A stretch of DNA of 64,000 bases from Escherichia phage vB_EcoM_011D4 (MT478991.1); one strand, 5' to 3'; shown: positions 35,669 to 60,741, counted from the stretch's first letter. Translations and numbers: made by a program. The notes: a model not told the origin generated them from the letters alone.

Positions 35669-35998
35669 TTATAGTCTCCTGAATGGATCATCACGTAAAT
35701 CAATATCTTTTAAGAACTCATCCCATGAATGGCGGATGTTGTTCTTAATTCTCCAGATAAGAGCAGGGATTGAACGCTCTCCCATCTGGAAGTATGGATC
35801 ATATGATCCGTATGCCCAATATGCTACTACAATTCCACAATCAGCGCAATAGTATTCTATTTCACTTGCTGGCGACCAAAGTCCATCAATATGATCGGTG
35901 ATCTTGCTTTCGATGTTATGGCTATGACAATCAGGGCAACGGATGCAATGACCTTGTTTATCGTAATTTGACGTTAGCGAATACTTAAACAATCTCAT
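35669..35998 (-). CDS. zinc-ribbon protein
   Basis: 109 aa; CIRCPDC...CADC; start/stop coupled with flanking genes. Confidence 0.5.
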   Translation of the reverse strand: MRLFKYSLTSNYDKQGHCIRCPDCHSHNIESKITDHIDGLWSPASEIEYYCADCGIVVAYWAYGSYDPYFQMGERSIPALIWRIKNNIRHSWDEFLKDIDLRDDPFRRL

Positions 35999-36714
35999 TA
36001 TAGATCCTTATTTGCTTCAAATACTGCCTTTGCGAATCCTCGCGGGGTAAGTGACCTTATAGTCTTTGTTTTCGTTCCTTTCCCGCCTAGCTTAGAATGC
36101 TGTTTACTGTACCCTTTATTAATCTGCAACGGTTTCTTTTCTGGCATTATAAAGCCTTGTCCGGTCCATAAGCAAGTCTTTTTCGGGTACATATCACGGG
36201 CGGCAATATACTCAGGAAACGTAGGATGCTTATCATCTTCCGGCAAATAACCGCCATATTCCCACGGATGGAACATGTAATCAGGCTTACGCCACATGCT
36301 AGAGATAACGCTTACAGGATTCTCTATCATGTAGGGAACTCCGAGCCATTCACCCAAATAAGCGGTTATTTTAGCTGCCCGTACATCATGAACTTGAATC
36401 AATGGTCCTTGTTCTCGTTTCTTTCGTTCAAAGTGCGCAGCGCCACTAACAGCTAAATTGGTGCACGGTGGGAATGCAAAGATAATATCCGGTTTCCCCC
36501 ATTCAAGGTCCATTGCTCTTTCCAGCCAGTTCAAATCAATCCAGGTGTTTACATAGGTAATGTTTGGATGTTCAAATCTGGTATTATACTTTTTGTATGT
36601 ACCGTGGTCGGCGTCATCCGCATTAAAGCAGACTACCTTATGACCTGCTTTAGCCCATTCTAGCCCCATTATCCCCGATCCGTCAAAGTTGCAGAATATT
36701 AATTTTTGTTTCAT
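35998..36714 (-). CDS. compact DNA (cytosine-5)-methyltransferase-like protein
   Basis: 238 aa; motif I FDGSG, motif IV FAFPPCTNLAVSG (Pro-Cys), motif VI MIENP, motif IX RSLTPRGF. Confidence 0.6.
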   Translation of the reverse strand: MKQKLIFCNFDGSGIMGLEWAKAGHKVVCFNADDADHGTYKKYNTRFEHPNITYVNTWIDLNWLERAMDLEWGKPDIIFAFPPCTNLAVSGAAHFERKKREQGPLIQVHDVRAAKITAYLGEWLGVPYMIENPVSVISSMWRKPDYMFHPWEYGGYLPEDDKHPTFPEYIAARDMYPKKTCLWTGQGFIMPEKKPLQINKGYSKQHSKLGGKGTKTKTIRSLTPRGFAKAVFEANKDL

Positions 36715-42662: not shown

Positions 42663-43136
42663 CTACTCCTTATTTTCGCGCTCGTACTTTTCGAAATAAA
42701 ATTCTACTGGCTGGTCATGAATTGACAGCAAGCCAAAGCGTTTAGCCGCTCGCAATCCCATATTGCGCTGAATGTACTTCTGGAAGTTCTCGCGTATACA
42801 CTTACGCCAGTATTCTAAGCCCATACAACTTTTATAAAGATTGCATTGCACACACGCCGGATTCATGTTATCAAGTATATCATGTTCCGGTTTATGCATT
42901 CCTACAACCTTATACTTCCACGATCCATCATCATTACGGGCAATTCGTCCATTTTCATCATAGACTACCTTTGAGCGTCGCAATACTGGTTTGATGTGGT
43001 CTGCGTGCCAGCGATCCCCTAGTTCCTCGCCACAATAGGCACAACGTCCACCATATTTCATTTTCAGGATCTGGCGTTGCTCTTTCTTTGACAATTTTTT
43101 AGGTTTAGGGGCTTTCGCCCCTTCATTATCACACAT
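42663..43136 (-). CDS. HNH endonuclease (putative freestanding homing endonuclease)
   Basis: 157 aa; CAYCGEELGDRWHADHIKP...HDILDNMNPACVQCN; start overlaps ligase stop by 8 nt. Confidence 0.7.
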   Translation of the reverse strand: MCDNEGAKAPKPKKLSKKEQRQILKMKYGGRCAYCGEELGDRWHADHIKPVLRRSKVVYDENGRIARNDDGSWKYKVVGMHKPEHDILDNMNPACVQCNLYKSCMGLEYWRKCIRENFQKYIQRNMGLRAAKRFGLLSIHDQPVEFYFEKYERENKE

Positions 43137-51459: not shown

Positions 51460-51936
51460 TTAATCATGACCGTGATTTGCAATATCCGCTCGCGTCTTAT
51501 CTTTGTGATTTCCTACGTCAAAGACACGATAACCATTTTCACGCAAAACTTTAATCACTTCTGGGTTATCCTCAAAGACTCCGACAACTTCATCTTTATC
51601 AAAGGATTTAATTACCTCTAATTTGATGTGATAGTCTTTACGGGAATCGGTACGGCCTCTCATAAAGATTTTATCAAAACACACCCCGTTAGAAATTAAC
51701 CAATCAATTGTTTCCATGTAAGCATGTGAACTTCGTCCGGTGAGGATGTAAATCAAATGCCCGTTGTCGGAAAGAGCATTAATAACACGAATTACATCGT
51801 AAATGGGGGAATCTCCCCCACATGCCTTGTTATATTCGACCCATGACTCGACTTTATCAAGATTTTCGGTTGGCATCTTTGCTAGTCGATGTGTTGGATC
51901 TGTGATCGTAAAATCTAAATCGACAAAATATATCAT
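51460..51936 (-). CDS. HAD-superfamily phosphatase-like protein
   Basis: 158 aa; motif I FVDLDFT, motif II ILTGR, Lys and acidic motifs downstream; ATGA coupling to nrdB. Confidence 0.55.
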   Translation of the reverse strand: MIYFVDLDFTITDPTHRLAKMPTENLDKVESWVEYNKACGGDSPIYDVIRVINALSDNGHLIYILTGRSSHAYMETIDWLISNGVCFDKIFMRGRTDSRKDYHIKLEVIKSFDKDEVVGVFEDNPEVIKVLRENGYRVFDVGNHKDKTRADIANHGHD

Positions 51937-53093
51937 AGATATTTCCCGAATCGGTTGTAGTCATTGTCTGTTAAATCGGTATTAACCTGAGATACCAGAT
52001 ACATAATCTCTACTTCCTGCGCTGCATTCTGTACTTCGTCAGAGTTCAACCATTTACGCATCCACGGTAACGGATGACGACGAACACTAAACGGGCTTTT
52101 CAGTCCGGCAGCACGCATACGGGAATCTGCCAGGTATTCTACATAGGTTTTCAGAATTTCCGGTGACAGGTTAGGAATTGCCCCCATTGCGAATAGGTGG
52201 TCTACCCATTCTTTTTCTTGCTCGACAACATCCAGAAAGATTTTCGTTGCTTCGCCTTCAAGTTCTTCCGCAATCTGTTTCCACTCATCACCATCAACCC
52301 CCGTTTGCCATTGACGAATAATGTATTGTGTGCCTTTTAAGTGAAGTTGTTCATCACGCGCAATAAATTTCATGATCTTCGCGTTACCTTCCAGTAAACC
52401 ACGTTCGGCAAAGCTGAAAGTACATGCAAATGACACATAAAAACGAATTGCTTCCAGTGCATTTACGCAGTGTGCACACAGATAAATCGAAGCCATCAGA
52501 TCTCGTTTTGTGTCTTCAAAAAATCTTCTTGCATCATCTAATGCTGTCTGATCGTCTCGTTCTTCCCAATAGCGGAGTTCTTCTTTTGCATTCTCATACT
52601 TACGAATCCAATAAAGAACATCATCATAATATTGCCCGATAGATTCCGCTCGCTTCATGATAGCAGGGTTATCGATGATCTGGTCGAACTCACTAGCCGG
52701 ATCAATGAAACAGTTACGCATAATGTGTGTATAGCTTCGGCTATGAATCGTTTCGCTGAATGTCCATGTTTGCAACCATGTATCGAGAGTTGGATCAGAT
52801 ACAATTGGACCAAATGCTGCGGACGGTGCGCGACCTTGAATAGAATCAAGTAATGTCTGATACTTCAAGTTTTCAGTAAAGAAACGCTTTTCAACGTCAC
52901 CCATATTAAGATATTGAATGCGGTCGGTTGCAAGTGAAATTTCTTCGGGGCGCCAGAAAAATGACAATTGCTTTTCGATCAGTTCTTCAAATACTTGATG
53001 ACGCTGAATATCATAGCGAGCGATACCCAACCCACTACCCAGAAACATTGGTTCGTTCATAATATCAACATGTTCGCGGTTAAATACGCTCAT
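51933..53093 (-). CDS. nrdB: ribonucleotide reductase small subunit NrdB
   Basis: 386 aa; di-iron/tyrosyl radical R2 fold; T4 NrdB-like. Confidence 0.93.
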   Translation of the reverse strand: MSVFNREHVDIMNEPMFLGSGLGIARYDIQRHQVFEELIEKQLSFFWRPEEISLATDRIQYLNMGDVEKRFFTENLKYQTLLDSIQGRAPSAAFGPIVSDPTLDTWLQTWTFSETIHSRSYTHIMRNCFIDPASEFDQIIDNPAIMKRAESIGQYYDDVLYWIRKYENAKEELRYWEERDDQTALDDARRFFEDTKRDLMASIYLCAHCVNALEAIRFYVSFACTFSFAERGLLEGNAKIMKFIARDEQLHLKGTQYIIRQWQTGVDGDEWKQIAEELEGEATKIFLDVVEQEKEWVDHLFAMGAIPNLSPEILKTYVEYLADSRMRAAGLKSPFSVRRHPLPWMRKWLNSDEVQNAAQEVEIMYLVSQVNTDLTDNDYNRFGKYL

Positions 53094-53108: not shown

Positions 53109-53276
53109 TCACTTTTTAACACAAAAGAACTTAGTATTTCTGTTAACTTCGCTATCCTGCTGCAATTCCTGCACAGCTTCAAAACAATTTTGATGTGATG
53201 AAAACTCTACGCTGGTAACAGTTCCTTTATTATATGATCCTACGCTAACGGAAAGCAATAACCATAATGTAGCCAT
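53109..53276 (-). CDS. small signal-peptide-like protein, tandem paralogue 1
   Basis: 55 aa MATLWLLLSVSVGS...; TAATG coupling; not in ORF track. Confidence 0.4.
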   Translation of the reverse strand: MATLWLLLSVSVGSYNKGTVTSVEFSSHQNCFEAVQELQQDSEVNRNTKFFCVKK

Positions 53277-53449
53277 TAGTTCACCTTTTGTTTTTCAACG
53301 CAATATAGATTCATAAAGCGTTTATTGTCTTCACGGATAATCTCGCGAGCTTTAACGCAATCCTGCTTTGTGGAAAATTCAATGCTTGACATATTTCCGT
53401 AATTATACATTGAATTGCTTATTGCAATCAATAACCATACAGTAGCCAT
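53276..53449 (-). CDS. small signal-peptide-like protein, tandem paralogue 2
   Basis: 57 aa MATVWLLIAISNS...; coupled to neighbours. Confidence 0.4.
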   Translation of the reverse strand: MATVWLLIAISNSMYNYGNMSSIEFSTKQDCVKAREIIREDNKRFMNLYCVEKQKVN

Positions 53450-53647: not shown

Positions 53648-53676
53648 ATTATAGCGGGGATTTCTCCCCGCGTCAA
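53648..53676 (-). promoter_or_regulatory. early promoter with palindromic spacer (PeSL-like)
   Basis: Minus strand TTGACG-CGGGGAGAAATCCCCGC-TATAAT. Confidence 0.65.
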
Positions 53677-53684
53677 CACTTATT

Positions 53685-55928
53685 TTACAGCTTGCAAGAT
53701 GAGCACTCGCTAGCGTCTTCCGTACCATCAGCACCATCACGCACGTTAGCGTAATACAGGGTTTTCAGACCGTAATATTGAGCAAACAGCATATCATCTA
53801 ACACATCAGCAATATCGACTTTACCAGTCTTATAAGTGCTTGGATCATAGGATGTATTGGAACTAATCGCCTGATCTACAAACTTCTGCATGATCGCTGC
53901 CAGTGTCAGATAGGGCTTGTTACCTTTCTTGATCAGTGTCCAAAGCAGGTCAATAACATCAGCATTATTCTCTACGTTCGGAATAACCTGATTAAATTGC
54001 CCTTCTTTCGATCCTTTAACCGATACAATCCCGCGAGGCGGTTCAATACCATTTGTGCTGTTAGACACCTGAGAGGACGACTCACAAGGCATCAGCGCCG
54101 ACAGTGTACTGTTACGAATGCCATATTTTTTCAGGTCTTCGCGCAGTTCTTCCCAATCCATCTCATACACCGGATCAACCAGTTCATCTACTGTCTTTTT
54201 GTACCAGTCGATAGGAAGTTCACCGCGACCATAGCGTGTTTCGTGCATCAGTTCGCAAGCACCCTTCTCTTTAGCCAGTCGCACACTAGCCTTAATCAGA
54301 GCATATTGCAAGCGTTCAAACGTTTTATGCGTAAACTCGTTAGCGTCTTCATATGTGAAGAAATTATCTGCTAGATATGATGCAAAGTTAGTAACACCAA
54401 CACCCAGAGAGCGACGTTTTTTGGCTGTCAGAGCTTGTTCTACAGGATAATCCTGATAATCTAACAGGTTGTCAAGTGCACGCACCATAACCATAGCAAT
54501 GCGTTCTACTTCTTCCATATTTTCGATATCGAAATTACCTAAAACATATGCTGCCAAAGTACATAGGCTAATTTCTGAATCATCCCGACCCATCGGTTTA
54601 GTAGGCAGTGCAATTTCACAACACAGGTTAGATTGTTTAATCGGTGCTACATTACGAATAAACGCCCCATGATTGTTCATGTTGTCTGTGAACGTTGGGT
54701 AGATTCGACCAGTGTTAAAACGTTCAATTGCCACCGCTAAAAACAGGTCTTCGGCTTTAACACGAGTTTTACGAACACTCGGATCTTTTTCCAGTTTTTC
54801 GTAAAGCTGGCGGAAACCTTCCTCATCTCGGAAGTACAGATCCCACAACAAGCCACCCGCAACATCTGGACTAAACAGAGTAATGTAATCCCGTTTAAGG
54901 AATCGCTCTACCATCAGGTTATTAATCTGTACGCCGTAATCAAGATGACGAATGCGGTTATCTTCCACCCCCTTATTGTTCTTCAACACAATCAGACTTT
55001 CAAACTCTAAATGCCACATTGGGTAATAGAGAGTCGCCGCCCCGCCACGAATACCGCCTTGTGAGCATGACTTAACGGCAGTCTGAAAATGTTTCCAGAA
55101 TGGGATAACGCCAGTATGACGAACTTCACCATGCCCGATCTTAGATCCTTCCGCGCGAATCATACCAGCATTGATACCGATACCAGCACGCTTACTAATA
55201 TACTTGATGATTGCATTTGCTGTTTCGTTGATGCCCTGCAATGAGTCATCACTTTCAATAACCACACACGAACTAAATTGTCGTGTCGGGGTACGCACAC
55301 CCGCCATAATCGGAGTAGGCAGAGAGATTTGCTTATTCGCAACAGCATTATAAAAATCAATCACATGTTCAAGTCGATTTTCTGTCTCTTCTTGATGCAA
55401 GCACATACCGATCAGCATATACGCAAATTGCGGTGTTTCAATGATTTTCTTAGTGCTGCGATCCTGAACAAGATATTTCTCTTTTAACTGCATCGCACCA
55501 GCGTAGGTCATTTTAAAATCAAGTTTATGATCGATGAATTTCTCCAGATATTCCACTTCTTCGCGGGAATACTTTTGCAGAATTTCGCGATCATATTTTC
55601 CGGTTGCAATATTACGCTCAATATGGCTATAAAAATCAATCGGTTGGAATTGACCGTATACTGATTTACGAAGCGCGAACATTGCAAGGTTACTTGCTAC
55701 ATATTGATAATCAGGTGTTTCTACAGTAATGTTATCTGCGGCGACCTTAATCAATACTTTCTGGATATCATTGGTAGACATACCTTCTGTCAGAAGTGGT
55801 TCAACCATATCAAACAATTCATATGGATCAACGTTATGACCTTCGGCTGCCGCTTCCAGAATTTTCATTACTTTTTCTTTTTCAAACGGAACAGTCAGAC
55901 CGGAAGACTTAACAACATTTTTAATCAT
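53685..55928 (-). CDS. nrdA: ribonucleotide reductase large subunit NrdA
   Basis: 747 aa; N-terminal ATP-cone, C-terminal redox Cys pair CSSCKL; class Ia RNR. Confidence 0.95.
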   Translation of the reverse strand: MIKNVVKSSGLTVPFEKEKVMKILEAAAEGHNVDPYELFDMVEPLLTEGMSTNDIQKVLIKVAADNITVETPDYQYVASNLAMFALRKSVYGQFQPIDFYSHIERNIATGKYDREILQKYSREEVEYLEKFIDHKLDFKMTYAGAMQLKEKYLVQDRSTKKIIETPQFAYMLIGMCLHQEETENRLEHVIDFYNAVANKQISLPTPIMAGVRTPTRQFSSCVVIESDDSLQGINETANAIIKYISKRAGIGINAGMIRAEGSKIGHGEVRHTGVIPFWKHFQTAVKSCSQGGIRGGAATLYYPMWHLEFESLIVLKNNKGVEDNRIRHLDYGVQINNLMVERFLKRDYITLFSPDVAGGLLWDLYFRDEEGFRQLYEKLEKDPSVRKTRVKAEDLFLAVAIERFNTGRIYPTFTDNMNNHGAFIRNVAPIKQSNLCCEIALPTKPMGRDDSEISLCTLAAYVLGNFDIENMEEVERIAMVMVRALDNLLDYQDYPVEQALTAKKRRSLGVGVTNFASYLADNFFTYEDANEFTHKTFERLQYALIKASVRLAKEKGACELMHETRYGRGELPIDWYKKTVDELVDPVYEMDWEELREDLKKYGIRNSTLSALMPCESSSQVSNSTNGIEPPRGIVSVKGSKEGQFNQVIPNVENNADVIDLLWTLIKKGNKPYLTLAAIMQKFVDQAISSNTSYDPSTYKTGKVDIADVLDDMLFAQYYGLKTLYYANVRDGADGTEDASECSSCKL

Positions 55929-55975
55929 ATTACCTCACTTCATATTTTAGCAGGAACAAGTTTATCCTCCATATT

Positions 55976-55991
55976 GGGGGCTTTCGCCCCC
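55976..55991. repeat. hairpin GGGGGC-TTTC-GCCCCC, copy 1 of a direct repeat flanking the methyltransferase gene
   Basis: TGGGGGCTTTCGCCCCC(C)TTTGTT also at 56775-56796; core GGGGCTTTCGCCCC also at 43108-43121. Confidence 0.6.
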
Positions 55992-55996
55992 CTTTG

Positions 55997-56386
55997 TTAC
56001 AAGTCTAACGTATTTTGATGTATTCTGTCAACGGCAATTTGATAATATTTTTCGTCTTTCTCTATGCCGACAAAATTTCGATTTAAGTTTCGACACGCAA
56101 CACCAGTTGTTCCACTTCCCATAGTAAAATCCAGAACAGTTTCCCCCTCGTTGGTGTAAGTTTTTATCAGATATTCCATTAACTCTACTGGTTTCTGTGT
56201 TGGGTGCAATCCTCTTTCTTTACATCGACCGGAATAACTTACAATAGATTCTGGGCATTTGGTATCGTATGTTTTATTATTATAGCTTTGGTTTGTGACT
56301 AAAGGGATCGCCCCACTTTCATTTTTGTTGCTTCCTTTTTTAATTGGCTTGTCTCTTTTCGTCATTTGCGGATAATAAAGTGGCAT
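55997..56386 (-). CDS. DNA methyltransferase (N6-A/N4-C, beta class), C-terminal part after frameshift
   Basis: 129 aa; HPTQKPVEL and AdoMet motif FTMGSGTTG. Confidence 0.6.
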   Translation of the reverse strand: MPLYYPQMTKRDKPIKKGSNKNESGAIPLVTNQSYNNKTYDTKCPESIVSYSGRCKERGLHPTQKPVELMEYLIKTYTNEGETVLDFTMGSGTTGVACRNLNRNFVGIEKDEKYYQIAVDRIHQNTLDL

Positions 56387-56754
56387 TTTCCAGTTCTTGA
56401 AAATATGATAACATCTTCATGAATTTTTAACGGTTGTCGTTTTGCTTGAACAAAATTTGCCGCAAATTTTTTATCCCACACCCAAGAATAACAGAATCCG
56501 TTCATATTACTATGAATTAATGCCGTTGTGAATGGTTGAGACGCGGTCATGACAATGGCATTTTTAGGTTTAATTATTCTATTAATCGCCGCCCACATTT
56601 CAGTAAATGGTATAACACTATCCCATTTACACGCTGTTGTTCCATATGGAGGATCACAAAGAATTAAATCTACGCTTTCCGTTTCAATTTCTTTCATCAG
56701 TTCCAGACAATCCCCGTTCATCAACCAGATTTTGTCAGTTCTAACGTCATTCAT
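56362..56754 (-). CDS. DNA methyltransferase (N6-A/N4-C, beta class), N-terminal part before frameshift
   Basis: 130 aa; catalytic DPPY; overlaps the C-terminal ORF by 25 nt in another frame. Confidence 0.6.
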   Translation of the reverse strand: MNDVRTDKIWLMNGDCLELMKEIETESVDLILCDPPYGTTACKWDSVIPFTEMWAAINRIIKPKNAIVMTASQPFTTALIHSNMNGFCYSWVWDKKFAANFVQAKRQPLKIHEDVIIFSRTGKCHFIIRK

Positions 56755-56775
56755 GATATACTATTCCTCATAAAT

Positions 56776-56791
56776 GGGGGCTTTCGCCCCC
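56776..56791. repeat. hairpin GGGGGC-TTTC-GCCCCC, copy 2
   Basis: Identical to copy at 55976-55991. Confidence 0.6.
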
Positions 56792-56796
56792 TTTGT

Positions 56797-58029
56797 TTAT
56801 ACTGCCATTTGAGCGGTGATCGCTGGATGGCTTTGATAGTTGTGGATTTTAAAGTCTTTCGGAGTCTTTGTCAATACCTCATCTAAAGATTTAAATTCCG
56901 GCAACTCAATTGTTGGTTTATCAAACGGAACACGGCTTAACTGTTCCATAACTTGATCAAAATGGTTTTTGTAAATGTGAGTATCTCCACCAGAGAAAAT
57001 CAGTTCTCCTACCTCAAGATCACACATTTTCGCTATGATGTGAGTTAACAGCGCATAGCTGGCAACATTAAAGGGCAAGCCCAAAAAGCTGTCTACGCTT
57101 CGCTGAAACCACATACAAGATAGTTTACCTTCATTGACGTAGAATTGCACGAAAGGATGACATACACCTAATACAGCATTATGTGTTCCTTGTACGTTCC
57201 ATGCGTCAATGATAATACGTCTATTATACGGATCATTCTTGATTAAGTCAATCACGTTTTGTAACTGGTCTTCCCAAATCTTCGGGCGATAGACATATTC
57301 TTCATCGTCTTTAGTGCTTGATGTGTCTACGTCCATACTAACAAAGATCGTGGTATCCGGTGCTATAATATCCCCACCCAGATAATCACTATCAAGCAGA
57401 TAACCGAAATAACCATCATCTACCCATTCCTGGAATCCCCACAAGCAATATGCATCATTAACAAAATTAGATTGGGTCTTCCAGTGATCTGCTACTAAGA
57501 ATTGATTATATTCAGAATCAAACTCTTCATAACGCATACCACGCCAGATAGCACATAAACGGTCTTCTGTTTCATTGGTTGGCGTAAAGTCTTCTACCCA
57601 CGGGTGTTTAAATGTATGTGTATATTTGCTATTAACGCGCTTAATTTTGATTTCACCATGTGGATGAATCGGTTTGCGTCGCCACGCCATACCATACATA
57701 TTGCCGACATTATAACCATTGAATCGCAAAGGATTCTTTTCTTTCATATCAAGACAGTTACCGCGCCAAATGTCAAAGGCTTCTTCGTCAAACTTACCGC
57801 GTGTAATTTCCTGTAAGCGACGGCGGTCAAGTGATCCTTCCATAAACCATAGCAACTCGCCAATTACAGAGGCTGTAGCCATCTTTTTAGTAGTCAGTAA
57901 GGGGAAACCCTTGCTTAAATCAATTCGCATCTCTGCACCGAATTTAGAGAGCGTACCGACCCCCGTGCGGTCTTCACGAGGCCAGCCATTATCAAGAACA
58001 TCACGCAACAGTTTCAAATATTCTTTCAT
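56797..58029 (-). CDS. td: thymidylate synthase with ~125-aa internal insertion
   Basis: 410 aa; ThyA motifs DRTGVGT, ELLWF, catalytic GVCHPFVQFYV, GLPFNVASYALL; extra segment between MYGMAWRR and DQLQNVIDLIKNDPYNRR. Confidence 0.85.
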   Translation of the reverse strand: MKEYLKLLRDVLDNGWPREDRTGVGTLSKFGAEMRIDLSKGFPLLTTKKMATASVIGELLWFMEGSLDRRRLQEITRGKFDEEAFDIWRGNCLDMKEKNPLRFNGYNVGNMYGMAWRRKPIHPHGEIKIKRVNSKYTHTFKHPWVEDFTPTNETEDRLCAIWRGMRYEEFDSEYNQFLVADHWKTQSNFVNDAYCLWGFQEWVDDGYFGYLLDSDYLGGDIIAPDTTIFVSMDVDTSSTKDDEEYVYRPKIWEDQLQNVIDLIKNDPYNRRIIIDAWNVQGTHNAVLGVCHPFVQFYVNEGKLSCMWFQRSVDSFLGLPFNVASYALLTHIIAKMCDLEVGELIFSGGDTHIYKNHFDQVMEQLSRVPFDKPTIELPEFKSLDEVLTKTPKDFKIHNYQSHPAITAQMAV

Positions 58030-58363: not shown

Positions 58364-58963
58364 TTACGCCTTCTTACGTTCTAAAATTTGTTCGCTGATC
58401 AGGTAATCATCAAGGAAGTAATTATGTTCTTCTTTTGTTACAAAGTCAAAATATAATTCCTGAATCATTTCCTTAGAGATACCAACATCATATTCAAACG
58501 GATCGTTGATTCCTGAACGTTGAACATACGTTAACACAATACGGTCCGCAAAGTCAACTGCTTTTTCAATCAGGGAAGGTCCACCGATAACGCTTACCAT
58601 ACCTTGCAATTTCTCTATGACTTCCAATAAATCCTTCAAACCACCATCATTAGTAATCGCGGTATACACATCAGGCTGTTCGCCGTTTTTTGCTTTCGGT
58701 GCTGGCTTACTGGTATCGGTACTAACAACCACATTCACACGACCTTCCAGTGCTTTAGGAAGACTTTCAAAGGTATTACGTCCCATTACTACCGCCGCAA
58801 GATCAACATCTCCCATAGTGCGCATTTTAAAGTTTTCCATATCTTTTTTGATTGGACGACCCCACGGTAAGCCGCCTTTAAAACCAAACGCCCAATTTTC
58901 ATCCGACATTTTAGTGTCACCAATCGCAAATACACATTGAATCATAATATAATCTCCTGTCAA
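58364..58963 (-). CDS. frd: dihydrofolate reductase
   Basis: 199 aa; GGLPWGRPIKKDMENFK and VIGGPSLIEKA match the DHFR fold; T4 frd position. Confidence 0.9.
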   Translation of the reverse strand: MTGDYIMIQCVFAIGDTKMSDENWAFGFKGGLPWGRPIKKDMENFKMRTMGDVDLAAVVMGRNTFESLPKALEGRVNVVVSTDTSKPAPKAKNGEQPDVYTAITNDGGLKDLLEVIEKLQGMVSVIGGPSLIEKAVDFADRIVLTYVQRSGINDPFEYDVGISKEMIQELYFDFVTKEEHNYFLDDYLISEQILERKKA

Positions 58964-59793: not shown

Positions 59794-60741
59794 TTAGAGA
59801 TTCAGAAGAGAATCAAGGTCATCCAGATCCGAAGCGGAGGAAGTACCGCCACCCAGGTCCAGAGATGCCATCAGGTCATCAGCGGAAGAACTCGACGCGG
59901 TGATAGCTGAGGTAGTACCAGCGTCGAATGCATTCATCTGAGCATCGAAATCATCAAGCTGGCTGTTAATCGCTGCCGCAGCACTGGAAGCCGCAGCACC
60001 AGCTACCATAGACACGCCCATAGTTTTCTTAAATTTGGTTTCCAGTTCATCAAACGGTTTAAACTGGCTAGGTGCTACAATCTCACCCAGATCAACCATG
60101 TTTTCCATCAGATATTTCTGATATGCTTCGTCTTCAATTTTCGGAAGCTGTGATTGCTGCATGAAACGAGAATCATCATAGTTCTGGTGTTTATCAACCT
60201 TCTTAGCTTTCAGGAGGAAGTTAGCGCCAGAGAACACACAAGTTACATCGACCGGAACTTCGCCCATATCGGTATTCACGTTCACCATTGCAACGATCTT
60301 ATCATAAATTTTCTGACCGAAGCGGAATTTGAATACCTTACCTTCGTTTTCTGGTGCTTGAGGATCTTTCAGTACCAGAATATTTGCGTAGTAAGACGCT
60401 TTACGTTTAATCAGTTGCCATTCGGTTTTATCGGTATTGTACAGATCTTTTTCGTTAATATATTTGCACACCGGGCAAGAATCAAAATCACCGTGGGTGC
60501 TGGAGCAGTTTTCCCAATACCATTTTCCATTAACTTTGAAGGAATGGTTTACCAGTTTCACAATCGGCAGACCGTCTTCTGTCTTAGACGGCAGGAAGCG
60601 AATCAGGGCTTCACCGTTACCCGCTGCATCAGTCTTAATCTTCCACTCTTTCGGATCTTCTTTGGAAAAACCGTTGCCACCTTTCAGTGCGGCCAGTTGA
60701 GCTTGCAGTTTGGAGCTATCTTGACGTTTAAACATATTCAC
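59794..60741 (-). CDS. 32: single-stranded DNA-binding protein gp32
   Basis: 315 aa; zinc site [18 protein letters not shown], acidic Ser/Asp-rich C-terminus; about 65% identical to T4 gp32 by eye. Confidence 0.95.

What the first reader, a model, noticed from the sequence alone, without database searches (positions are those of the whole stretch)
55976..56791. Frameshifted beta-class DNA methyltransferase bracketed by identical GC hairpin repeats between nrdA and td
Two overlapping ORFs encode the halves of one N6-adenine/N4-cytosine methyltransferase: the N-terminal part with DPPY (56362-56754) and the C-terminal part with HPTQKP and FxGSGTTG (55997-56386). They are in different frames with a 25-nt overlap around a T/A homopolymer (minus strand ...ATATTTTCAAGAACTGGAAAATGCC...). 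This is either an inactivating frameshift, a sequencing error at the homopolymer, or a slippage-based on/off switch. The gene is flanked on both sides by the same 22-24 bp element TGGGGGCTTTCGCCCCC(C)TTTGTT (55974-55997 and 56773-56796), which suggests it arrived as a cassette between nrdA and td.
Basis: seen in the sequence. Interest (0 to 1): 0.55.

Follow-up and report, generated by a model that had tools for sequence, protein, structure and literature searches.

The report
Broken accessory methylase cassette in RB49-like phage
A DNA-methylase gene recently picked up by an RB49-like coliphage, between its thymidylate synthase and ribonucleotide reductase genes, has been knocked out by loss of a single A; this is ordinary phage gene gain and decay, not a new mechanism.

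Summary
The window is Escherichia phage vB_EcoM_011D4 (Krischvirus, RB49 species). Two overlapping minus-strand ORFs (56362-56754 and 55997-56386) are the halves of one beta-class DPPY N6-adenine DNA methyltransferase. Three independent metagenome contigs carry an intact 252-aa allele in the same td-nrdA slot. Over the 759-nt gene the window differs from them by one thing only: A5 has become A4 at 56387-56390. No other gene in the 64 kb is frameshifted. An independent Logan reassembly (SRR11793931) reproduces the lesion. So it is most likely a very recent inactivating deletion, less likely a read-level error, and not a programmed switch. Nearly all homologues are single ORFs.

The flanking repeat is also real: 35 nt at 80% identity, with an identical 16-nt GGGGGC-GAAA-GCCCCC hairpin. 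About 50 of 58 Krischvirus genomes have the empty site with one hairpin, 8 carry a different small ORF there, and none carries this methylase. The element resembles the PeSL recombination cassettes described for RB49/phi1 but has no sigma-70 promoter. The cassette plus adjoining td and nrdA sequence (1.1-1.4 kb in all) shows no substitutions between phages whose flanks differ by 3-4%, so it spread recently by ordinary homologous recombination. Low novelty.

The parts
55997..56754 (-). Whole accessory beta-class (DPPY) N6-adenine DNA methyltransferase gene. Here it is a frameshifted pseudogene; the intact allele is 759 nt / 252 aa.
   Evidence: The fusion is 100% identical to P0001. The DNA is identical to L004/L005/L006 except for one A. 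Family matches: PF01555, phrog_67, and PDB relatives DpnA, M.MboIIA, M.RsrI and CcrM.
56362..56754 (-). N-terminal fragment ORF (130 aa). It holds the catalytic DPPY motif and ends in 7 out-of-frame codons (CHFIIRK) plus a stop.
   Evidence: It is GenBank QMP82558.1 'DNA methylase'.
56387..56390 (-). The lesion: an A4 run (GGAAAATG) where intact alleles have A5 (GGA AAA ATG = G K M).
   Evidence: This is the only difference inside the gene in a 4-way DNA alignment. Homologues read ...FSKTGRMPVYYP... straight across the junction.
55997..56386 (-). C-terminal fragment ORF (129 aa). It holds the target-recognition region plus the AdoMet-binding motifs HPTQKP and FTMGSGTTG.
   Evidence: It is GenBank QMP82557.1.
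56765..56799 (-). Upstream copy of the stop-hairpin-SD element: td stop TAA, ACAAAG, hairpin GGGGGC-GAAA-GCCCCC (56776-56791), then the methylase's own SD (GAGG).
   Evidence: The RNA fold is -14.8 kcal/mol, z = -3.2.
55965..55999 (-). Downstream copy of the same element: methylase stop TAA, CAAAG, hairpin with a G6 run (55976-55991/2), then the native AATATGGAGG... leader of nrdA.
   Evidence: Its 3' side is identical to the RB49 empty site.
56797..58029 (-). td (thymidylate synthase, 410 aa), the upstream neighbour.
   Evidence: PF00303 at 1e-83; annotated td in RB49.
53685..55928 (-). nrdA (747 aa), the downstream neighbour.
55423..56844 (.). Substitution-free tract shared with phages that carry the intact allele. 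It runs 55423-56814 against L004 and 55729-56844 against L005, and covers the cassette plus the td 3' end and the nrdA 5' end.
   Evidence: There are 0 substitutions in the tract, against 6-12 differences per 250 nt in the flanks.
53648..53676 (-). Canonical PeSL downstream of nrdA, for comparison: TTGACG-17-TATAAT with the CGGGGAGAAATCCCCG stem-loop between the hexamers.
   Evidence: In phages Delraymugoa/Aragogtheria it is duplicated around an unrelated C5-methylase.

Best explanation
An ancestor of phage vB_EcoM_011D4 (Krischvirus, RB49 species) acquired an 800-bp 'moron' cassette encoding a beta-class N6-adenine DNA methyltransferase. The cassette went into the 68-nt td-nrdA spacer, at the GC-rich GNRA-loop hairpin that follows the td stop codon. 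Recombination at that hairpin left one copy of the stop-hairpin-SD element on each side. This is the same logic as the PeSL cassettes of RB49/phi1, but without a promoter. The cassette then spread among diverged Krischvirus lineages by ordinary homologous recombination in the td and nrdA flanks. In this phage, one A was lost from an A5 run (GGA AAA ATG became GGAAAATG). That truncates the protein after Lys123, at the junction between the catalytic half and the half holding the target-recognition and AdoMet-binding regions. The gene is therefore a very young pseudogene and the phage most likely no longer methylates its DNA with this enzyme.

Shown: the lesion, the intact alleles, the empty and alternative sites, and the identity tract. 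Inferred: the direction and mechanism of the original insertion, loss of activity, and that the lesion is biological rather than a read error.
For: - The fusion made by restoring one A equals P0001: 100% identity over 100% of 252 aa.
- P0001 is encoded between td and nrdA in three independent assemblies: Logan SRR10692239, ENA ERZ27297797 and ENA ERZ28635246.
- The only in-gene DNA difference is A5 versus A4.
- Homologues are single ORFs of 240-281 aa (the 120 best listed). 426 of 432 phage records give one place covering at least 80% of the query, and only one of the 60 listed is in two pieces.
- The lesion is reproduced in the Logan contig from SRR11793931, which is 100% identical to the window over 6393 nt.
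- No other gene in the window is frameshifted relative to E26, L004 or L005.
- 58 Krischvirus records were surveyed: about 50 are empty, 8 carry a 303-nt ORF, and 0 carry this methylase.
- The RB49 empty-site sequence equals the left arm of the upstream copy plus the right arm of the downstream copy.
- The substitution-free tract is 1.1-1.4 kb, within flanks that are 3-4% diverged.
- PeSL-mediated indels are documented for RB49/phi1 (PMC2839356).
Against: - No reads are available and the sequencing platform is unknown, so a systematic homopolymer miscall cannot be excluded. SRR11793931 is probably the same phage's own data, not an independent isolate.
- The hairpin element has no sigma-70 hexamers, so it is not a canonical PeSL.
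- No donor carrying the same hairpin was found, so the role of the hairpin in the original insertion is inferred only from junction sequences.
- Loss of methylase activity has not been tested.
Confidence: 0.7

Rival explanations
1. The frameshift is a sequencing or consensus error at the A5 homopolymer, and the phage actually carries the intact 252-aa methylase.
For: The lesion is a single-base length change in a homopolymer. Everything else in the gene is 100% identical to the intact alleles. The G runs of the flanking hairpins also vary by one base between assemblies.
Against: An independent k-mer reassembly of SRR11793931 gives the same A4 and is 100% identical over 6.4 kb. No other gene in 64 kb shows a frameshift, whereas an error-prone assembly would be expected to show several. 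A5 is a short run, rarely miscalled in consensus on any platform (my own knowledge, not tested here).
Confidence: 0.17
2. The A4 allele is still expressed. One route is low-level -1 ribosomal slippage of tRNA-Lys on A_AAA (GGA AAA UGC), which would give exactly the wild-type ...TGK-MPLYY... protein. The other is association of the two separately translated halves as a split enzyme. Either would give an attenuated or switchable methylase.
For: The C frame is -1, and tRNA-Lys can re-pair perfectly on A-AA after a -1 slip (sequence). The C-terminal ORF starts with an ATG that overlaps the end of the N ORF, which would allow coupling. PHROGs holds half-length families for each half (phrog_12862 and phrog_18293), so split copies recur in phages.
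Against: There is no X_XXY_YYZ heptamer and no upstream SD-like stimulator. The downstream RNA is no more stable than shuffled sequence (z = 0.01). The intact allele is otherwise identical, so nothing has evolved around the shift. Split copies are rare exceptions. The SD before the internal ATG is weak. An A4/A5 run is far shorter than known phase-variable tracts (my own knowledge, not tested here).
Confidence: 0.05
3. The methylase is ancestral at this site, and the empty site of most Krischvirus genomes arose by repeated deletion between the two hairpin copies (PeSL-type mini-circle excision). On this reading the gene is not a recent insertion.
For: The empty-site sequence is exactly the product expected from recombination within the hairpin repeats. 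Excision between PeSLs has been shown experimentally for RB49/phi1 (PMC2839356).
Against: 0 of 58 genomes across the whole genus carry it, including the most diverged ones (JSE, GEC-3S). The cassette shows zero substitutions between phages whose flanks are 3-4% diverged, which indicates recent spread and not ancient residence.
Confidence: 0.05

Closest known systems
PeSL (promoter-early stem-loop) mobile regulatory cassettes of RB49/phi1/JSE (Arbiol et al. 2010, PMC2839356; Comeau et al. 2014, PMC4122927)
   Same: The genus is the same. The element is an intergenic unit made of an upstream stop codon, a polyG/polyC stem-loop and an SD. Direct copies flank a non-core gene, and the empty site equals the recombinant of the two copies. 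The same slot is occupied by different cargos in different phages. A true PeSL 2 kb away (53648-53676) is duplicated around another methylase in Delraymugoa.
   Different: There are no sigma-70 -35/-10 hexamers at or around the hairpin. The site lies between core nucleotide-metabolism genes, not in a hyperplastic region. Present-day spread is by flanking gene homology. Mini-circle formation was not tested.
Beta-class (DPPY) N6-adenine DNA methyltransferases of Pfam PF01555 (M.RsrI, M.MboIIA, DpnA/M2.DpnII, CcrM catalytic domain; phrog_67)
   Same: The motif order is DPPY (motif IV) at the N terminus, then the target-recognition region, then HPTQKP and FxGSGTT (motif I) at the C terminus. Matches: PF01555, PDB 1g60, 1eg2, 5hfj and 6pbd at 1e-15 to 1e-20, and thousands of 240-280-aa phage homologues.
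   Different: Here the gene is interrupted by a 1-nt deletion. The recognition sequence is unknown, and no NCBIfam equivalog cut-off is reached.
Phase-variable methyltransferases (phasevarions) switched by homopolymer or short-repeat slippage
   Same: A length change in a homopolymer inside a methylase ORF toggles the reading frame.
   Different: The tract is only 4-5 nt. It is not expanded relative to homologues. Only one off allele is seen, in one phage. Nothing indicates reversible switching.
Accessory 'moron' methylases of T4-like phages (for example the unrelated C5-methylase of Delraymugoa/Aragogtheria)
   Same: These are single-gene anti-restriction cargo inserted at regulatory hairpins next to nrdA, and they are patchily distributed.
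   Different: The enzyme class is different (no similarity) and so is the intergenic slot.

Membership tests
Beta-class N6-adenine DNA methyltransferase (PF01555 N6_N4_Mtase) | Catalytic motif IV, (D/S)PP(Y/F), lies N-terminal to AdoMet-binding motif I, FxGxG (the beta permutation) | tested here: met
   DPPY is in the N fragment and FTMGSGTTG is in the C fragment. The two fragments cover PF01555 profile positions 1-109 and 141-220.
Beta-class N6-adenine DNA methyltransferase (PF01555 N6_N4_Mtase) | Significant full-length similarity to family members and to solved structures | tested here: met
   The C half scores 94.6 bits against a cut-off of 26.7. The intact allele carries PF01555. M.MboIIA aligns over residues 8-240 at 3e-18 and M.RsrI over 15-231 at 4e-15. 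phrog_67 matches at 3e-76.
Beta-class N6-adenine DNA methyltransferase (PF01555 N6_N4_Mtase) | One continuous polypeptide that carries both halves of the fold | tested here: not met
   The A5-to-A4 deletion splits the gene in this window. The condition is met in alleles L004-L006. The window copy is therefore filed as a pseudogene of the family.
Beta-class N6-adenine DNA methyltransferase (PF01555 N6_N4_Mtase) | Adenine-N6 (not cytosine-N4) methylation at a defined target sequence | not testable with these tools
   The DPPY motif and the nearest solved relatives (DpnA, M.MboIIA, M.RsrI, CcrM) favour N6-adenine. Specificity needs methylome data.
PeSL mobile regulatory cassette (Arbiol et al. 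2010) | Stable polyG/polyC stem-loop in an intergenic position, between the upstream stop codon and the downstream SD and start | tested here: met
   GGGGGC-GAAA-GCCCCC, -14.8 kcal/mol, z = -3.2 and -2.6. It is flanked by TAA and by GAGG/GGAGG. The definition is taken from PMC2839356.
PeSL mobile regulatory cassette (Arbiol et al. 2010) | Sigma-70-like early promoter (-35/-10) associated with the stem-loop | tested here: not met
   No promoter-like site overlaps either hairpin. The nearest lie inside the td 3' end (56874-56846) and the methylase 3' end (56031-56002). The true PeSL at 53676-53648 scores 11 of 12.
PeSL mobile regulatory cassette (Arbiol et al. 2010) | Direct copies flank non-core genes, and indels between related phages map to the copies | tested here: met
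   There are two copies 800 nt apart. The empty site equals the recombinant junction. Three site states occur among Krischvirus genomes.
PeSL mobile regulatory cassette (Arbiol et al. 2010) | Formation of excised mini-circles by recombination between the copies | not testable with these tools
   This needs inverse PCR on infected cells or virion DNA.
Programmed -1 ribosomal frameshift site | Slippery heptamer X_XXY_YYZ plus a downstream structure or upstream SD stimulator, conserved among homologues | tested here: not met
   The sequence is U_GGA_AAA, where only the A-site tRNA can re-pair. The downstream fold has z = 0.01. Homologues are unshifted.

The most novel reading that the evidence does not exclude
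The promoter-less stop-hairpin-SD element behind td is a second, stem-loop-only class of recombination hotspot in Krischvirus genomes. It would let PeSL-like cassette capture reach into the conserved nucleotide-metabolism operon, where three site states are seen. The A4 allele would be a selected 'off' state: loss of adenine methylation under methylation-dependent restriction (for example Mrr) in the propagation host, possibly leaky through -1 slippage of tRNA-Lys.
Probability: 0.12. Interest if true: 0.4.

Novelty: new member of a known kind. Interest (0 to 1): 0.2.

Why it matters
The locus is a clean, dated snapshot of accessory-gene turnover in a T4-type phage. It shows the empty site, two alternative cargos, an intact cassette sweeping through diverged genomes, and its first inactivating mutation. 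For annotation, the two GenBank CDSs QMP82557/QMP82558 should be one pseudogene. For phage-therapy work, this isolate probably lacks an anti-restriction methylation that some close relatives seen in metagenome assemblies have. It adds a promoter-less example to the PeSL recombination story, but it reveals no new mechanism.

Tried and rejected
- I looked for the cassette junction elsewhere. Exact-pattern scans of JGI metagenomes, IMG/VR and GTDB genomes found nothing. IMG/VR relatives of the protein are at most 68% identical.
- I looked for the donor. The closest homologues (69-73% identity) sit in a siphovirus-like contig and in other T4-like phages near nrdG/rIIB. None has this hairpin beside the gene.
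- I tested whether the Delraymugoa 'DNA methyltransferase' near nrdA is the same gene. It is not. It is an unrelated C5-type enzyme in a different slot.
- I tested for a generally error-prone assembly. The frameshift scan of the whole window against E26, L004 and L005 gave seven other two-frame hits besides the methylase (itself picked up with both L004 and L005). All seven fall in antisense or non-coding stop-to-stop frames, or in a gene (the RB49 ORF236 homologue) that is likewise split in RB49, so they were rejected.
- I tested for a frameshift-stimulating RNA structure and found none.
- The first literature search, for the bare string 011D4, returned only unrelated papers in the rows listed. 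The full phage name found one paper that merely cites its description, Wang et al. 2021, Agrobiol Rec 6:27, which is not held in the library. The sequencing platform therefore stays unknown.

Full report
**What is there.** All genes in this part of the window run on the minus strand:
- nrdB, 51933-53093
- three small ORFs
- nrdA, 53685-55928
- the two ORFs of the finding, 55997-56386 and 56362-56754
- td, 56797-58029
- frd, 58364-58963
- gene 32, 59794-60741

The window is 94-97% identical to RB49, phi1, kvi, Cognac and other Krischvirus genomes. An exact-sequence look-up of the two half-proteins identifies it as Escherichia phage vB_EcoM_011D4, a 163,764-bp genome of species Krischvirus RB49. 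GenBank annotates the halves as two separate CDSs, QMP82558.1 'DNA methylase' and QMP82557.1 'DNA methylase family protein'.

**The frameshift.**
- The 130-aa ORF carries DPPY and covers Pfam PF01555 profile positions 1-109. On its own this is a weak match, below the gathering score.
- The 129-aa ORF carries HPTQKP and FTMGSGTTG and covers positions 141-220, at E = 1.1e-26.
- The C-terminal frame is -1 relative to the N-terminal frame. Reading ...ACT GGA AAA | ATG CCA CTT..., restoring one A in GGAAAATG predicts ...FSRTGK-MPLYYPQM...
- A search with that 252-aa fusion returned P0001, which is 100% identical over 100% of its length and is itself 252 aa.
- P0001 is encoded in three independent assemblies: Logan SRR10692239, ENA ERZ27297797 and ENA ERZ28635246. 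In the two contigs long enough to show neighbours it lies between td and nrdA of a Krischvirus genome; the third is a 900-nt contig that matches the window across the cassette and its junctions.
- In a four-way DNA alignment, the only difference inside the 759-nt gene is one A: A5 in the three intact alleles and A4 at window 56387-56390.
- More distant homologues read straight through the junction, for example FSKTGRMPVYYP and FSVSGRMPTYYP.
- The 120 best homologues are all single proteins of 240-281 aa. In the phage collection, 426 of 432 records give one place covering at least 80% of the query, and only one of the 60 listed is in two pieces.
- The two-ORF state is therefore not the normal state of the family. 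PHROGs does contain small half-length families, which shows that split copies recur occasionally.

**Real mutation or error?**
- The exact 130-aa fragment is also called on a Logan contig from run SRR11793931. That contig is 100% identical to the window over 6393 nt, including the A4 run. This is probably the phage's own read set, reassembled independently. It rules out an assembly or editing slip but not a systematic read error.
- I scanned the window for frameshifts against phage E26 and contigs L004 and L005, using all stop-to-stop frames of at least 80 aa from those loci. The methylase is the only genuine gene split in this way.
- The other two-frame hits lie in antisense or upstream non-coding frames, or in the RB49 ORF236 homologue, which has the same arrangement in RB49 itself.
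- An error-prone homopolymer assembly would be expected to break several genes.
- My estimates are: genuine deletion about 0.7, read-level error about 0.17, and the rest shared among the other readings.

**Programmed switch?**
- A -1 slip of tRNA-Lys on A_AAA would in principle regenerate exactly the wild-type protein.
- However, there is no X_XXY_YYZ heptamer and no SD-like stimulator.
- The downstream 130 nt fold no better than shuffled sequence (z = 0.01).
- The allele is otherwise identical to the intact one, so nothing has adapted to the shift.
- An A4/A5 tract is much shorter than the tracts of known phase-variable methylases (my own knowledge).
- The break falls at the boundary between the catalytic half (motifs IV-VIII) and the half holding the target-recognition and AdoMet-binding regions. 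Both halves contribute strands to a single Rossmann-like sheet in solved relatives such as M.MboIIA and M.RsrI (plus general knowledge). Neither half should be active alone. Complementation between the halves is conceivable but has no support.

**The flanking repeats.**
- The repeat family is 55965-55999 and 56765-56799: 35 nt, 80% identical, 800 nt apart.
- Each copy consists of a stop codon (TAA), (A)CAAAG, the hairpin GGGGG(G)C-GAAA-GCCCCC (-14.8 kcal/mol; z = -3.2 and -2.6), and an SD-like GAGG or GGAGG.
- The 14-nt core occurs three times exactly in the window. With up to 2 mismatches there are 4 matches, against 0.09 expected by chance.
- RB49, Delraymugoa and most other relatives have one copy: td-TAA-ACAAAGGGGGCGAAAGCCCCC-AATATGGAGGATAAAC...-nrdA. 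That is exactly the left arm of the window's upstream copy joined to the right arm of its downstream copy.

**Survey of the td-nrdA site.** Among 58 Krischvirus records:
- About 50 are empty, with a 68-nt spacer.
- 8 carry a different 303-nt ORF (phrog_464, unknown function) behind a different hairpin, GGCGGGGAGAAATCCCCGCC. These are E26, Makalu_001 to _003, SSG23, SFHK24 and LF73P4.
- None carries the methylase.

The slot is therefore a recurrent insertion point with three states.

**Relation to PeSLs.**
- Arbiol et al. (PMC2839356) described PeSLs in RB49/phi1. A PeSL is a stop codon, an AT-rich tract, a sigma-70 promoter, a polyG/polyC stem-loop and an SD. Recombination between copies inserts, deletes and circularises non-core genes.
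- A canonical PeSL lies 2 kb away, downstream of nrdA, at 53676-53648 (TTGACG-17-TATAAT with the stem-loop between the hexamers).
- In Delraymugoa and Aragogtheria that PeSL is duplicated around an unrelated C5-type methylase.
- The td-nrdA element shares the stop/stem-loop/SD layout and the flanking-repeat signature. It has no promoter hexamers and sits between core genes.
- I therefore describe it as working like a PeSL but do not file it as one.
- On the plus (antisense) strand, the hairpin followed by TTTGTT scores as an intrinsic terminator. Several GenBank records annotate a 'terminator' under the matched td-nrdA stretch.

**How the cassette moves now.**
- Against L004 the window has no substitution from 55423 to 56814. 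Against L005 it has none from 55729 to 56844.
- The surrounding td and nrdA sequence differs at 6-12 positions per 250 nt.
- A tract of 1.1-1.4 kb, comprising the cassette plus adjoining td and nrdA sequence, has therefore been exchanged very recently among lineages that are 3-4% diverged.
- This is what general homologous recombination during co-infection gives. It does not need the hairpins.
- The hairpin G runs differ by one base between alleles, in a swapped pattern: G5/G6 in the window and L004, G6/G5 in L005 and L006.

**Origin.** No donor was found. The nearest homologues (69-73% identity) are in a siphovirus-like contig and in other T4-like phages next to nrdG/rIIB, and none has this hairpin beside the gene. 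Exact junction patterns are absent from JGI metagenomes, IMG/VR and GTDB genomes.

**Verdict.** The observation and the interpretation are both essentially right. The object is a recently acquired accessory N6-adenine methylase cassette in a PeSL-like slot of an RB49-type phage, freshly pseudogenised by a one-base deletion. It is a tidy example of known processes, not a new kind of system. Interest is about 0.2.

Noticed in passing
window 56797-58029 (-): Thymidylate synthase is 410 aa, yet the 266-position Pfam profile spans residues 2-410 in one stretch. That implies an in-frame insertion of about 140 aa, roughly residues 120-260. It is conserved (406-410 aa) across Krischvirus, and its most variable patch is at 57204-57247.
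   Followed up: no
window 53648-53676 (-); L001 5360-5400 and 6260-6300: A canonical PeSL (TTGACG-17-TATAAT with an embedded CGGGGAGAAATCCCCG stem-loop) lies downstream of nrdA. In phages Delraymugoa and Aragogtheria it is duplicated around an unrelated 279-aa C5-cytosine methylase.
   Followed up: partly
window 43108-43121 (-): A third exact copy of GGGGCGAAAGCCCC lies inside the first codons of a 157-aa ORF (42663-43136). The E26 homologue of that ORF is annotated 'putative endonuclease'. The ORF overlaps the end of the upstream 500-aa ORF.
   Followed up: no
L003 3229-3531 (E26); also Makalu_001 to _003, SSG23, SFHK24, LF73P4: An alternative cargo occupies the same td-nrdA slot. It is a 100-aa protein of phrog_464 (unknown function) behind a PeSL-type hairpin, GGCGGGGAGAAATCCCCGCC, and the native nrdA leader is deleted.
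   Followed up: partly
window 55976-55992 and 56776-56791; L004-L006: The G-run lengths of the two hairpin copies are swapped between alleles. The window and L004 have G5 upstream and G6 downstream. L005 and L006 have G6 upstream and G5 downstream. This could reflect exchange between the copies or independent slippage.
   Followed up: no
window 35998-36714 (-): A resident putative methyltransferase-like gene (FPPC motif, C5-type) is 98% identical to E26 QHB48787.1. The phage therefore has another candidate DNA-modification gene apart from the broken cassette.
   Followed up: no
window 53109-53276 and 53276-53449 (-): Two tandem paralogous small ORFs (55 and 57 aa, MATLWLLLSVS... and MATVWLLIAIS..., likely membrane or secreted peptides) lie between nrdA and nrdB, with a 173-nt repeat spacing.
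   Followed up: no
L005 7480-8019: The metagenomic Krischvirus contig carrying the intact methylase also has an HNH_3/AP2 endonuclease ORF inserted just upstream of nrdB. It is absent from the window.
   Followed up: no
PHROGs phrog_12862 / phrog_18293; Agrobacterium phage OLIVR4 (H180): Half-length PHROG families match only the N half (residues 9-144) or only the C half (139-248) of this methylase. One phage record shows a two-piece match. Breaks of this gene family at about the same domain junction therefore recur in other phages.
   Followed up: partly
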